Shown piece after piece: positions 60,602 to 63,663 of a DNA stretch of 64,000 bases. Source of the stretch: Giardia intestinalis (taxonomy: Eukaryota); the NCBI GenBank assembly GCA_000002435.2, contig CM018789.1; one strand, given 5' to 3'. The position numbers were made by a program, and so were the translations under genes. How positions within the stretch are numbered: position 1 is the stretch's first letter; the number at the start of each line of letters is the position of its first letter. The notes under the pieces are model-generated. The model ran no database searches and had not been told where the DNA came from. It saw nothing but the letters and a program-made list of their open reading frames with translations.

Positions 60602-61127
60602 GTGGGTTTTTATTGACTGTGAATTATAGATCCGATTGGGCAATCAATTGAGTTCACCATAGAATTTCAAAGGAATGATGTGTAGTAATGTAAGTCTCAG
60701 TCCATCTAACTAGGAGATATTCCGTATCTGACGATAGAGGGATCTGTTGCAATTGGCGCAACTGATGCCAATCAGCCCTCTCACACGGATCGGATATGTT
60801 TTATCATACTGTAAATCTGACTATATGTCCACTTAGAATCCATATTAATACTCCTAGGCTCGTCATTGTTCAAGAATAAATATGACACTGTAATAGACAG
60901 TTGCACTCAGAATAATCTTCTTGCAGACTGGGACACAGATCAGTTGTTCTCTTCAAGGCTATATTGAACCAAAACCATCTATAGGCTTTATATGCTGATG
61001 ATTCACTCCACTCACTGGTTGTTTCCGGTGCTTTGCTGATGGGACCCTCGTCTGGGTGTGGTCCAGAGGTCTCACGAGTGACCCTCGCTCAATTCCTGGC
61101 CAGTCCGGAGACAAAGGTCGACTTTGG

Positions 61128-61404
61128 ATAATATAACGAGAGAGTCCTCTCCAATGATATGTCCAGAGCCTGGTGCGCTCCTCGGTCGTTCCACAAGCGT
61201 GTGCTCAGACCGAATGCGTACATCGGTCCTTTAGGGGTTCAGCTTACTTACCCATCTGCGTCGTCCACCAGTGGCGCCTCTCCTTGGTCTTCCTTCACGG
61301 TGGGTGAAGCTCTGGTCGCCGTCTTTTTTAGATGCTCCCGTCTGACTCGGTGATTGCTGTCGGGGCTCTCCACTGGCCGCCCCTCGGTGTCCATCCGGCT
61401 GTGG
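61128..61404. repeat. left arm of long inverted repeat (277-bp near-identical core)
   Basis: 61128-61404 is the reverse complement of 63269-63545, with about 4 mismatches in the outer 35 bp and otherwise identical by eye. Diverged homology of about 75-80% extends outward to about 61060 and inward to about 61600. Confidence 0.85.
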
Positions 61405-63268
61405 TTCTGGGCAGTGGTCCCACAGTCGCGGTTACCTGGGTCCCAGTGGGCCAGCTGGTGGGGAGGCTGGGGTTGCTGGGGCGGTGAGGCCGGAGGGGAC
61501 TGGTGGGACCGGGGGCGGTGTTCATATGTGCCCCTGGGTCTGGTGGGCCATTGGGGTGGTGGGGTGATCGCAGCTGTGGTGACTGGGGGCTGTCCATCTG
61601 TGACTCACCCCTCTGTGTGCTCGTGGTCTGTGAGTGCCTCCACCCAGACAACACTCAGGAGCCGTGCACACCGGGACAGAGAGGGTGACCAAGGGGAGTC
61701 AAGCAGCCCTGCCATGAGAGTGCACAGCAACCAGCCTGAGCTGTAGAGTCTGCTCGAGCGATGGTAGTGGCAGACGACTCCCTCTGACAGCAACCCTGGT
61801 GACTGCACTGGTCTGCTCTCGAGGCTGAGTGACAGTGTGCACAGATGGACATGAGTGCAGGAGGACCATCCACACACGAACAGACTGTGTGGACCCAGAG
61901 AGGACTGGAGTCTGCTCGGGACACGCTGACTGTGCCCCGTACGAGAGTGTCAGGCAACCACCCGAGCACCCGAGAGGCAGCAACAGACACGGGCACTAGA
62001 GATCCCCAGCCAGACACATTGCTATGCCCATCCACAGGGGCATCAGAAGGCCAGGTGGGGTCACCCTCACAACCAGGACCTGATAGGAAGCCAGAGGACT
62101 CAAACACTACAGCAGAGCAGGCCCAAGGGAGGCACACTCCAGGCAGGCGAGCAGTGGCAGAGCCTTGATAGCTGCCATCCACCCCCATGACACCTATAGC
62201 AGGCACCAGACTCACCGAAGGCTCCGCTGGCCTCCACCGATGACCCGAGGGGACAGCGACCAGAGGAGTGAGGAGACCTTCGGATGACACAAGAGGCCGG
62301 CTGTCCAGCAAGCGATGGAACACAGGTGACCTCTGAGCACCATAAGGCACAGAGCCAACCATCAGAGTGATGCCCGATCACAGAGACGACCACGAGCACC
62401 CTCCACCGCACTCTGAGGGGCTGTCAATCATCCCACTGCCTCTCATAGCAGACCTCCTTAAGGGCAGTGCAGTGGGGCCCAGCTCATGCAGGGAGGTGCA
62501 CACCCCTCAGTATAGGACACCCCGGCTCTCCCCGAGGGGTCATCAGAGCCACGAGGAGGTGTCAAGGTCCTGGTAGACCACACCGAGAACTCCCGAACAG
62601 GCACAGCAGGTGATGTTGGGTGATCCTCAGCGTGCTCCTCTCTGATGGTAGAGCATCCTGAGACCAAGGGGGCTCACCTCTGCCTATGAACAACACACAG
62701 CACTCCACAACGAGGATCCACCAGGAGCAGCACAGCTGACCACGGGGACAGTGCAGCCACCCGGTACCCCACCGTGCCAGTCTTCTGGGCCATCACACTA
62801 GAGGCCTGAGAGAACCCCATCCCATCCACAGGGTCATCCATGCCCCTGCTAGCCCGAGGTGAACTACCCCCGTCGAGGCACTGGACAGGGCATGCCAGGG
62901 GCCCAGCAGACCCGCACAGAGCAACAGGAGAGGCTACGATAGCCTGCCTCACCCTTCACGTACTAGTCAAACAGAGAGGTAGTACTGCCTGAGGCATGCA
63001 GAGGCCAAGGGAGGCGCTCAGTCAGGGGGACACGACACGATCGTCGGTGTCTGTGTCTCGGGAGTGCAACGAAGGCTGGGGATCAGACACAACCACCTTG
63101 GCAAACAGAGCGGGGATCACCCACCACCCCAATGGCCCATCAGACCCAGGGGCACATACAGACATCACTCCCAGTCCCCTCCAGCCCTCACCGCCCCATA
63201 CCCCGCCTCACCCATCATCCGAACCCGCTGGGACCCAAGCGACCGCGACTGTAGAGCACTGACTCGAG

Positions 63269-63545
63269 CCACAGCCGGATGGACACCGAGGGGCGGCCAG
63301 TGGAGAGCCCCGACAGCAATCACCGAGTCAGACGGGAGCATCTAAAAAAGACGGCGACCAGAGCTTCACCCACCGTGAAGGAAGACCAAGGAGAGGCGCC
63401 ACTGGTGGACGACGCAGATGGGTAAGTAAGCTGAACCCCTAAAGGACCGATGTACGCATTCGGTCTGAGCACACGCTTGTGGAACGACCGAGGAGCGCAC
63501 CAGGCTCTGGATGTATCACTGGAGAGGATTCTCTCGTTATATTAT
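63269..63545. repeat. right arm of long inverted repeat (277-bp core)
   Basis: Reverse complement of 61128-61404. Diverged extension inward to about 63090 and outward to about 63610. Confidence 0.85.
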
Positions 63546-63663
63546 TCACAACCAGCCATCGTCTCTGGACTGGTCAGGAAGGAGCGATGATTACCCACAC
63601 GATCTCTGGACCGCGCTCAGATAGCCCCAGCAGCACATCTACATAGGCTACATAAAGTAACGC

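What the first reader, a model, noticed from the sequence alone, without database searches (positions are those of the whole stretch)
61060..63610. About 2.5 kb GC-rich non-coding structure built from long inverted repeats with a gene-conversion-like identical core
Two arms face each other across a 1.86 kb spacer centred near 62336. Arm cores 61128-61404 and 63269-63545 are about 98% identical as reverse complements. Homology continues both outward (to about 61060/63610) and inward (to about 61600/63090) at only about 75-80%. The identity peak sits in the middle of each arm rather than at defined termini, which argues against simple TIRs of a DNA transposon. It argues instead for either an inverted duplication with a recently homogenised patch or two convergent copies of a small conserved functional element, such as an ncRNA gene or a recombination or origin-like site. 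No ORF longer than about 110 codons is present and the overlapping ORFs are proline-rich translation artefacts. The structure sits in a repeat and pseudogene-rich accessory region between a NEK-ankyrin gene and a VSP gene. I do not recognise it as any described Giardia element (GilM, GilT, GilD, rDNA, telomere repeats).
Basis: seen in the sequence. Interest (0 to 1): 0.8.

Follow-up and report, generated by a model that had tools for sequence, protein, structure and literature searches.

The report
Spacer element behind Giardia surface-antigen gene
This is a real, non-coding 2.7-kb repeat that sits just behind a Giardia surface-antigen (VSP) gene; its two inverted arms carry a 243-bp stretch made identical by recent copying from one arm to the other, and it looks like the spacer already known to separate back-to-back VSP gene pairs.

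Summary
Two inverted arms (61034-61578 and 63106-63635) flank a 1.53-kb centre. A 243-bp core is perfectly identical between the arms, inside homology of about 65-90%.

The window is Giardia intestinalis WB. The element (60990-63661, 60% GC) is non-coding: no Pfam domain, no codon periodicity, no Rfam or tRNA match, and no structural covariation.

It is not unique. Five related copies were recovered from Giardia contigs in metagenomes. Their centres are 88-93% alike in a star-like pattern, and most arms abut the 3' side of a VSP gene.

The geometry matches the published tail-to-tail identical VSP pairs: the inverted repeat ends 572 nt past the VSP stop codon, and the gene-free interval is about 2.69 kb. 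Here only one VSP is present.

A colinear copy (L002) has arms only 87% alike, so the perfect core is a recent arm-to-arm gene-conversion tract, not a conserved gene.

Assemblage E (P15) lacks the element at the syntenic site. It carries a small inverted repeat with the same arm ends next to a dead reverse-transcriptase remnant, which hints at a GilD/Genie 2 origin.

I could not compare the sequence directly with annotated WB pair spacers or with GilD. Verdict: a real feature, a new member of a known kind, of moderate interest.

The parts
60990..63661 (.). Whole element: a 2,672-bp, 60% GC, non-coding repeat unit between the NEK upstream region and the VSP 3' UTR
   Evidence: Homology with assemblage E (P15, L006) stops at 60989 on the NEK side and at 63662 on the VSP side. 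P15 has 677 bp of unrelated sequence in between. Homology with the colinear copy L002 ends at the same left point.
61034..61578 (+). Left (VSP-distal) inverted-repeat arm, read from outer to inner end
   Evidence: The arm profile matches over its whole length (nhmmer E = 3e-151). T-rich and A-poor on this strand.
63106..63635 (-). Right (VSP-proximal) inverted-repeat arm. Its outer end lies 43 nt from the VSP stop codon and its inner end 572 nt from it
   Evidence: Its outer 120 bp are 91% identical to the VSP-side arm of L002.
61162..61404 (+). Left copy of the 243-bp perfectly identical core: the proposed recipient of arm-to-arm gene conversion
   Evidence: Exact reverse-complement match. 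The flanks of this arm group with 'distal-type' arms (L005 0.83 for the outer part, L002_dist 0.86 for the inner part), whereas the first part of the core groups with the VSP-side arm of L002 (0.93 against 0.79).
63269..63511 (-). Right copy of the 243-bp perfect core: the proposed donor
61579..63105 (+). Unique 1,527-bp centre. It is A/C-rich and T-poor on the + strand and is the best-conserved part of the family
   Evidence: 88-96% identical to five other copies in 100-bp bins. Pairwise identities are 88-93% in a star-like pattern. No codon periodicity and many 1-2-nt indels. No Pfam domain in six frames.
61263..61344 (+). Most conserved block of the arms (GGCGCCTCTCCTTGGTCT ... a short hairpin ... 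CTTTTTTAGATGC). The mirror copy is at 63329-63410 on the minus strand
   Evidence: Mean pairwise identity is about 0.80 against 0.56-0.71 elsewhere in the arms, and the block is recognisable in the P15 arm. The hairpin plus T-run was picked up by the terminator-like scan at 61303-61320 and 63370-63353. Its function is unknown.
63678..64000 (-). 3' end of the flanking VSP gene (ends ...CRGKA, stop codon at 63678-63680), followed by its AGTAAA signal
   Evidence: Translation; ORF list. The VSP 3' UTR motif CTTAGGTAGTAAACGC precedes the arm in the window, L001, L002 and L003.

Best explanation
The element is one copy of a Giardia-specific, non-coding repeat of about 2.7 kb that lives directly behind VSP genes. 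I take it to be the same unit that forms the gene-free spacer, or 'hinge', of the tail-to-tail identical VSP pairs of isolate WB. Here it is in a one-sided form: a VSP on the right, a NEK kinase gene on the left.

The unit consists of two inverted arms of about 530-545 bp around an asymmetric 1.5-kb centre. The arms act as substrates for recombination within the chromosome. A recent gene-conversion tract of at least 243 bp, most simply copied from the VSP-side arm into the far arm, produced the perfectly identical core inside arms that are otherwise about 65-90% alike.

By inference, the same arm-to-arm copying running outward through the conserved VSP 3' end is what keeps paired VSP genes identical at other loci. 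Nothing indicates that the core is a gene.

Shown: the anatomy, the absence of coding signal, the existence of the family, the adjacency to VSP genes, the absence from the syntenic site of assemblage E, and the mosaic relationships of the arms. Inferred: identity with the annotated WB pair spacers, the direction of conversion, and any role in making or homogenising VSP pairs.
For: The inverted repeat and the 243-bp perfect core are established.

The window is G. intestinalis WB C6: four of its proteins match it exactly.

The element is non-coding. No Pfam family matches in six frames. Substitutions among six copies are spread evenly over the three codon positions, and indels are mostly 1-2 nt.

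It belongs to a family. The 235-aa ORF in the centre has nine homologues. The contigs that carry them (L001-L005) align with the element at 84-90%, and the centres are 88-93% alike in a star-like pattern.

It is associated with VSP genes. The VSP 3' UTR or VSP coding sequence lies next to the outer end of the arm in the window, L001, L002, L003 and L005.

The geometry matches the literature. The inverted repeat ends 572 nt after the VSP stop, and the interval from that stop to the far end of the element is about 2,690 bp. Published tail-to-tail identical pairs have 3' divergence points at 486-572 nt for most pairs and ORF-to-ORF distances of 2,393-2,814 bp for all but one pair (PMC2996952 Table 5). 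All 12 convergent pairs in the long-read assembly are 2,526-2,813 bp apart with no gene between them (PMC7000408 Table 2). The spacers of pairs 112208 and 115797 are reported to be highly conserved with each other (10.1101/2022.03.07.483299).

Gene conversion is supported. The arms of L002 are 87% alike with no perfect tract, and relationships change segment by segment along the WB arms.

The locus is real. Logan contigs agree with the window up to 61289 and break before or inside the core. A sub-assemblage that is 96% identical has the left arm at the same place (L009-L011).
Against: No annotated WB tail-to-tail spacer could be fetched, so identity with that spacer rests on position and dimensions, not on sequence.

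The left side of this copy has no VSP, and neither does the equivalent side of L002.

The arms also occur away from any VSP. In P15 they form a 1.23-kb inverted-repeat element next to a dead reverse-transcriptase region.

The arms are less conserved between copies than the centre. That is unexpected if the arms are the functional recombination substrate.

The direction of conversion relies on one comparator (L002), which may have had conversions of its own. A 29-bp block inside the core (61242-61270) is identical to L001 but unlike either arm of L002, so the history includes exchange between loci as well.
Confidence: 0.6

Rival explanations
1. It is a fragment of the dead non-LTR retrotransposon GilD/Genie 2. 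On this view an untranslated part of that element naturally carries inverted repeats, and it has been dispersed and trapped next to VSP genes. This concerns origin and could be true together with the best explanation.
For: In P15, a 1.23-kb structure with the same arm ends (arms 14635-15020 and 15868-15732, inverted) lies directly upstream of GC-rich DNA. That DNA continues into a region homologous to window 55083-55907. The window region just upstream of that stretch (about 55767-55930) gives a weak RVT_1 match across the YxDD motif (E = 0.0046, below Pfam's cut-off). From my memory of the abstract of Burke et al. 2002 (not readable here), all Genie 2 copies contain inverted repeats of up to 172 bp; the shorter P15 arm is 137 nt. 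Reverse-transcriptase remnants lie between 4 of the 7 head-to-head VSP pairs (PMC7000408).
Against: No reverse-transcriptase or endonuclease remnant was found in six frames of 61000-63700 at E <= 1. A profile of the centre finds nothing in the P15 locus or near the window's RT remnant. The interval between the P15 arms and the RT motif gives no Pfam hit either, so the adjacency could be a nested insertion. The GilD consensus was not available.
Confidence: 0.25
2. It is a non-autonomous mobile element of the foldback or terminal-inverted-repeat type. It inserts preferentially just after the poly(A) signal of VSP genes, and the inverted arms are its termini.
For: All arms begin at the same profile position (2-3) whatever their flanks, including both ends of the small P15 element, which is in a non-VSP context. 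The centres are about equally distant from one another, as after a burst of copying. The element is present in WB and in a 96%-identical sub-assemblage but absent from the syntenic site of assemblage E.
Against: Target-site duplication was not significant at any of the three complete copies (492, 1014 and 1160 of 2000 shuffles reach the observed score). There is no transposase-like coding sequence. The syntenic P15 site is not an empty site: it holds 677 bp of unrelated GC-rich DNA. Identity between the arms peaks in the middle rather than at the tips. The published transposon inventory of Giardia (abstract of Arkhipova & Morrison 2001, recalled from memory; the paper was not readable here) found no transposase-related sequences.
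Confidence: 0.2
3. The identical core is kept identical by selection because each arm carries a functional element. Candidates are a small RNA gene ending at the T6 run, or an A/T-rich bidirectional promoter that feeds antisense or hairpin RNA into VSP silencing.
For: A block of about 80 nt (61263-61344) is the best-conserved part of the arms in all copies, including P15. It contains a short hairpin followed by TTTTTT in the same orientation as the VSP. Giardia promoters are short A/T-rich, inherently bidirectional elements (PMC1885649, title and abstract listed).
Against: There is no Rfam family at E <= 1 and no tRNA-like gene. RNAalifold gives a covariation term of +0.48, meaning no support. 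The perfect tract is three times longer than the conserved block and is absent from L002. The core differs between copies by 7-30% outside that block. No expression data could be examined.
Confidence: 0.1
4. It is an assembly artefact: a collapsed or mis-joined palindrome.
For: Perfect inverted repeats are hard to assemble, and every short-read contig stops before or inside the core.
Against: The junction of NEK with the left arm is reproduced at 100% identity in eight independent read sets. The whole architecture, including both junctions with the centre, is reproduced in an unrelated metagenome contig (L002) at 84% identity. L004 carries the centre with arm ends on both sides. The reference assembly is from 200x PacBio reads (PMC7000408).
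Confidence: 0.02

Closest known systems
Spacer of the tail-to-tail ('-> <-') identical VSP gene pairs of G. intestinalis WB (vsp1267 = GL50803_112208 pair; Adam et al. 2010, PMC2996952; Xu et al. 2020, PMC7000408)
   Same: It starts directly after the VSP 3' UTR and is gene-free. Its total length is about 2.7 kb. The inverted repeat runs about 0.5 kb (here 572 nt) beyond the stop codon and then diverges abruptly, leaving a unique centre of about 1.5 kb.
   Different: Only one VSP is present. The arms are about 65-90% alike apart from a 243-bp patch, whereas in the pairs they are nearly identical all the way through the genes. Sequence identity with an annotated pair spacer was not tested.
GilD / Genie 2, the dead non-LTR retrotransposon family of Giardia
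   Same: Degenerate and GC-rich, dispersed in accessory regions rich in VSP and NEK genes, and reported to carry inverted repeats. A relative of the arms lies next to a dead reverse-transcriptase region in P15.
   Different: No reverse-transcriptase remnant was found in the element. The inverted repeats here are three times longer than the reported maximum of 172 bp. No sequence comparison was possible.
Large palindromes kept homogeneous by arm-to-arm gene conversion (primate Y-chromosome palindromes P1-P8; chloroplast inverted repeats)
   Same: Inverted arms around a unique spacer. Identity between the arms is explained by copying within one molecule rather than by selection on each base.
   Different: The scale is different (0.5-kb arms against tens of kb to Mb). 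Conversion here is patchy rather than covering the whole arm. This is an analogy of mechanism only, not homology.
Foldback and MITE-like inverted-repeat elements
   Same: Long inverted arms with defined outer ends, no coding capacity, multiple dispersed copies, and presence/absence differences between lineages.
   Different: No target-site duplication, no known partner transposase in Giardia, and arm tips less similar to each other than the arm middles.

Membership tests
Tail-to-tail VSP inverted-pair spacer | Begins immediately 3' of a VSP gene, after the conserved UTR and poly(A) signal | tested here: met
   The VSP stop codon is at 63678 and the arm's outer end is at 63635. The same junction is seen in L001, L002 and L003.
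Tail-to-tail VSP inverted-pair spacer | Convergent, identical VSP genes on both sides | tested here: not met
   The left neighbour is a NEK-ankyrin kinase gene, 58544-60643. No VSP homology lies left of 61034.
Tail-to-tail VSP inverted-pair spacer | Inverted repeat continues about 486-572 nt past the stop codon in most published pairs (two have first divergence points of 318 and 354 nt) and then diverges abruptly | tested here: met
   The inner end of the right arm is at 63106, which is 572 nt from the stop. Published values are in PMC2996952 Table 5.
Tail-to-tail VSP inverted-pair spacer | Gene-free interval of about 2.4-2.8 kb | tested here: met
   From the far end of the element (60990) to the VSP stop (63678) is about 2,690 bp, with no coding signal. 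Published range: 2,393-2,814 bp in all but one pair.
Tail-to-tail VSP inverted-pair spacer | Sequence similarity to the spacers of annotated WB pairs (for example d112208/112208) | not testable with these tools
   The WB chromosome could not be reached by any tool. The supplementary sequences of the preprint contain no match.
GilD / Genie 2 non-LTR retrotransposon | Remnants of reverse-transcriptase or endonuclease coding sequence | tested here: not met
   The six-frame Pfam scan of 61000-63700 gave no family at E <= 1.
GilD / Genie 2 non-LTR retrotransposon | Inverted repeats within each copy (up to 172 bp; recalled from the abstract of Burke et al. 2002, not read here) | tested here: inconclusive
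   Inverted repeats are present but about 530 bp long. A P15 relative has a 137-nt short arm and lies next to a dead RT region.
GilD / Genie 2 non-LTR retrotransposon | Sequence similarity to the family consensus | not testable with these tools
   The consensus is not held, and the papers could not be read.
Terminal-inverted-repeat / foldback mobile element | Inverted termini with the same defined ends in all copies | tested here: met
   The arm profile starts at position 2-3 in every copy, whatever the flank.
Terminal-inverted-repeat / foldback mobile element | Target-site duplication | tested here: not met
   The best direct repeat in the flanks is no better than shuffled flanks in the window, L002 or P15.
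Structured non-coding RNA gene | Match to a curated RNA family, or base pairs supported by covariation | tested here: not met
   Rfam: 0 matches at E <= 1. ARAGORN: 0 genes. Covariation term +0.48 kcal/mol on six arms.

The most novel reading that the evidence does not exclude
The unit is an uncharacterised foldback-type element that seeds Giardia's VSP palindromes. Once inserted behind a VSP gene, its inverted arms would drive inverted duplication and continued homogenisation of the neighbouring gene. Read-through transcription across arm, centre and arm would yield hairpin RNA that feeds the RNAi pathway implicated in choosing which VSP is expressed. The conserved A6/T6 block in each arm would act as a bidirectional start site.
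Probability: 0.12. Interest if true: 0.8.

Novelty: new member of a known kind. Interest (0 to 1): 0.42.

Why it matters
VSP genes underlie antigenic variation in Giardia. In WB, the only identical VSP genes are those arranged as inverted pairs, an arrangement the authors who described it called cryptic (PMC2996952).

This locus shows what the pair spacer may look like when it is not masked by perfect palindromic identity. It is a discrete, conserved, non-coding unit with its own inverted arms, and it carries a datable conversion patch.

If the equivalence with the pair spacers holds, this locus provides direct sequence evidence that arm-to-arm conversion operates at these spacers. It also defines the boundaries of the unit that a mechanism for pair formation has to explain. 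In addition, it supplies coordinates for testing inversion isomers and hairpin-RNA production.

If the equivalence does not hold, this is simply one more degenerate repeat in an accessory region.

Tried and rejected
1. Coding potential. A six-frame Pfam scan, Pfam on homologous ORFs, and a test of codon position and indels on six copies were all negative.

2. Known RNA families and tRNA-like origin. Rfam at E <= 1 and ARAGORN found nothing. RNAalifold on six arms gave no covariation.

3. Other copies in the window. None were found by BLASTN or nhmmer.

4. JGI metagenome scans. One scan used an arm motif and one used the only 27-nt invariant stretch of the centre. Neither gave a hit.

5. A concatenated six-frame query to the protein database. 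It saturated the candidate list and found nothing, so that search was wasted.

6. Fetching the WB chromosome through exact proteins failed. Annotated tail-to-tail spacers therefore could not be compared.

7. GilD/Genie 2 papers were not held. The consensus was unavailable.

8. Target-site duplication. A 12-of-14 direct repeat at the two ends of the element (60976-60987 and 63636-63649) looked promising, but it is no better than shuffled flanks.

9. The idea that the centre is flipped relative to the VSP in L001 and L003 was dropped. Those copies are simply the other half of a two-sided arrangement.

10. Literature searches for the conserved motifs as text found nothing, and the preprint's supplementary sequence tables also held no match.

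11. The VSP gene's identifier could not be recovered from supplementary tables, because the stored sequences are truncated.
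Full report
**Observation.** The inverted repeat is real. The repeat finder reports arms 61093-61419 / 63254-63580 at 94% complementarity, plus collinear shorter pieces. BLASTN of 61000-63700 against the whole 64-kb window gives a single inverted match, 61051-61578 / 63106-63621. 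It is 86.6% identical over 531 columns (E = 2e-177), and there is no other copy in the window.

A gapped alignment extends the arms to 61034-61578 / 63106-63635. In 40-column windows identity is 65-80% in the outer part, 100% through the middle, and 62-93% in the inner part. The longest exact reverse-complement match is 61162-61404 = 63269-63511, 243 bp.

The block 60990-63661 is 60% GC, against 38% in the left flank. Composition is strand-asymmetric. The centre and the right arm are A-rich and T-poor on the + strand, and the left arm is the mirror image.

The only factual slip concerns ORF length: a 235-codon ORF (61655-62362, minus strand) and a 130-codon ORF exist.

**Source and setting.** Four proteins encoded in the window are exact matches to G. 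intestinalis WB C6 proteins on a 1,485,438-bp chromosome (GL50803_00113133, 113130 and others). To the right, a VSP gene on the minus strand ends in ...CRGKA, with its stop codon at 63678. To the left lies a NEK-ankyrin kinase gene, 58544-60643 on the minus strand.

**Not coding, not a known RNA.** Six-frame translations of 61000-63700 match no Pfam family at E <= 1. In an alignment of six copies, variable sites are spread evenly over the three codon positions (for example 47, 41 and 44 within the 235-codon ORF), and indels are mostly 1 or 2 nt. Rfam gives no match at E <= 1, and ARAGORN finds no tRNA-like gene. RNAalifold on six arm cores gives a covariation term of +0.48 kcal/mol, which is no support for a conserved structure.

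**A dispersed family.** The 235-aa ORF has nine homologues in the protein collection, at 39-94% identity. Eight are from ENA metagenome assemblies and one is from MetaClust.

Five of the contigs that carry them were fetched (L001-L005), and they align with the element at 84-90%:
- L002 is colinear with the whole structure and with the VSP 3' end (window 60989-63815).
- L004 carries the centre with short arm ends on both sides.
- L001, L003 and L005 carry an arm followed by the left part of the centre.

Three contigs (L001, L002, L004) come from one sample and differ from each other by 10-12%, so they are distinct loci. All centres are 88-93% alike in a star-like pattern. The centre is the better-conserved part (88-96% in 100-bp bins). 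The arms are 55-85% alike and carry many indels.

**Association with VSP genes.** The conserved VSP 3' UTR (CTTAGGTAGTAAACGC) directly precedes the outer end of the arm in the window (right arm), L001, L002 and L003. Pfam confirms VSP genes next to the element in L001 and L002. In L005 the arm abuts a truncated VSP coding region. The exceptions are the left arm of the window and its counterpart in L002, which share one flank, and a second, directly oriented arm in L001.

**Comparison with what is published.** Adam et al. 2010 (PMC2996952, Table 5) list nine of the tail-to-tail pairs of identical VSP genes. In most of them the flanks stay nearly identical for 486-572 nt beyond the stop codon and then diverge abruptly; two pairs have first divergence points of 318 and 354 nt. 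The ORFs lie 2,393-2,814 bp apart in all but one pair (3,222 bp). Xu et al. 2020 (PMC7000408, Table 2) list 12 convergent pairs in the long-read assembly, all 2,526-2,813 bp apart with no gene in between. A 2022 preprint (10.1101/2022.03.07.483299) notes that the spacers of pairs 112208 (2,648 nt) and 115797 (2,649 nt) are highly conserved with each other.

In the window the inverted repeat ends 572 nt past the VSP stop. The interval from that stop to the far end of the element is about 2,690 bp, and the unique centre is 1,527 bp. For comparison, distance minus twice the divergence point gives 1,543-1,698 bp for most published pairs.

I therefore read this element as the same unit in a one-sided, degenerate form. 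This is an inference from position and dimensions. I could not obtain the sequence of an annotated pair spacer.

**The perfect core is a conversion tract.** L002 has the same architecture, but its arms are only 87% alike over 369 bp, with no perfect tract. The perfect identity is therefore not a family-wide constraint.

Relationships change along the WB arms:

| Segment | Finding |
|---|---|
| Outer 120 bp | Right arm is closest to the VSP-side arm of L002 (0.91). Left arm is closest to L005 (0.83). The two WB arms are 0.73 alike. |
| First 75 bp of the core | Both WB arms match the VSP-side arm of L002 (0.93) rather than its far arm (0.79). |
| Next segment inward from the core | Left arm is again closest to the far arm of L002 (0.86). 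|

The simplest reading is that the middle of the left arm was overwritten from the right arm. The history is more complex than one event, though. A 29-bp block (61242-61270) is identical in both WB arms and in L001 but only 38% like either arm of L002.

**Presence and absence between lineages.** The P15 (assemblage E) orthologue of the NEK gene lies in the same gene order: VSP, NEK, then a 503-aa gene. Homology with the window runs from 56201 to 60989 and resumes in the VSP 3' end at 63662. In between, P15 has 677 bp of GC-rich sequence with no significant similarity to the element.

Contigs from a sub-assemblage that is 96% identical to WB (L009-L011) carry the left arm at the same position. 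The element was therefore gained in the assemblage A lineage or lost or replaced in E. The direction cannot be told.

**A link to a dead retrotransposon.** Arm profiles (nhmmer) find a 1.23-kb structure in the P15 locus, at L006 14635-15020 and, inverted, 15868-15732. It has the same outer ends and the conserved block. It lies just downstream of the 503-aa gene.

It is followed by GC-rich DNA that runs into a stretch homologous to window 55083-55907. The window region just upstream of that stretch (about 55767-55930) gives a weak RVT_1 match across the YxDD motif (E = 0.0046, below Pfam's cut-off). WB lacks this 3-kb stretch.

As I recall from its abstract, Burke et al. 2002 reported that all Genie 2 (GilD) copies contain inverted repeats of up to 172 bp, so the arms may derive from that family. 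This could not be tested. The element itself has no reverse-transcriptase remnant, and its centre matches nothing in the P15 locus.

**Mobile element?** All arms start at the same profile position whatever the flank, and the centres look like the product of a burst of copying. However, no target-site duplication is detectable at the three complete copies. There is no transposase-like sequence, and the P15 site is not a clean empty site.

**Conserved block.** The best-conserved part of the arms is 61263-61344. Mean pairwise identity is about 0.80 there, against 0.56-0.71 elsewhere. It contains a short hairpin followed by TTTTTT and AGATG, in the same orientation as the VSP gene. Its role is unknown. 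A start site or a stop site for transcription are both possible, and neither was testable.

**Artefact?** Unlikely. Eight independent Logan contigs from different read sets are 100% identical to the window from 57478 up to 61289, and all end before or inside the repeated core, as expected for a true inverted repeat. L002 reproduces the whole architecture.

**Verdict.** The feature is real. The element is a member of a Giardia repeat family tied to the 3' side of VSP genes, and it most probably corresponds to the known spacer of tail-to-tail VSP pairs.

It is of moderate interest. It exposes the anatomy of that spacer and gives direct sequence evidence for arm-to-arm conversion, but the general arrangement is already in the literature. 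No function beyond acting as a recombination substrate is supported.

Noticed in passing
window 55083-55960, minus strand: Remnant of a reverse transcriptase. The translation ...LIAYTDDTLIFYSDDSD... gives a weak RVT_1 match to the C-terminal part of the domain (E = 0.0046, 17 bits, below Pfam's cut-off). It is truncated on its 5' side in WB and is homologous to P15 L006 17633-18610. It is probably a GilD-type dead element.
   Followed up: partly
L006 (P15, ACVC01000123.1) 14603-17633, against window 55907-56201: P15 has about 3 kb of GC-rich DNA (up to 72% GC) downstream of the 503-aa gene, where WB has 294 bp of AT-rich sequence. The stretch begins with a 1.23-kb inverted-repeat structure whose arms belong to the same family as the arms of the finding.
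   Followed up: partly
window 61242-61270 and mirror 63403-63431: A 29-bp block exists in two unrelated versions among family copies. CTTACTTACCCATCTGCGTCGTCC... occurs in both WB arms and in L001. GCCTTCTCGCAGACTCTCTGCTCT... occurs in L002, L003 and L005. The two versions are only 38% alike, inside otherwise alignable sequence. The cause is unexplained.
   Followed up: no
L001 107-2043: In this copy the centre is cut short at the equivalent of window position ~62655. It is followed by a second arm in direct, not inverted, orientation, so the units can also lie head-to-tail.
   Followed up: partly
L006 8931-9607: At the site where WB has the element, P15 has 677 bp of 61% GC sequence. It matches neither the element family nor anything else fetched. 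Its nature is unknown.
   Followed up: partly
window 56208-57716, minus strand: The 502-aa protein (GL50803_00113130) has at least three paralogues that are at least 90% identical elsewhere in WB (GL50803_00112938, 00112630, 0061453). One of them is on the same chromosome, so this neighbourhood is part of a segmentally duplicated region.
   Followed up: no
window 58544-60643, minus strand: The NEK-ankyrin gene is 685 aa from its first ATG (699 aa from a TTG). Its orthologues in P15 (80% identity) and in another assemblage A lineage (92%) are 716 aa. The WB copy may therefore have lost its original start.
   Followed up: no
window 53915-54871, minus strand: An ankyrin-repeat ORF of 318 aa lies directly downstream of the reverse-transcriptase remnant on the same strand (Ank_2, E = 3e-48).
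   Followed up: no
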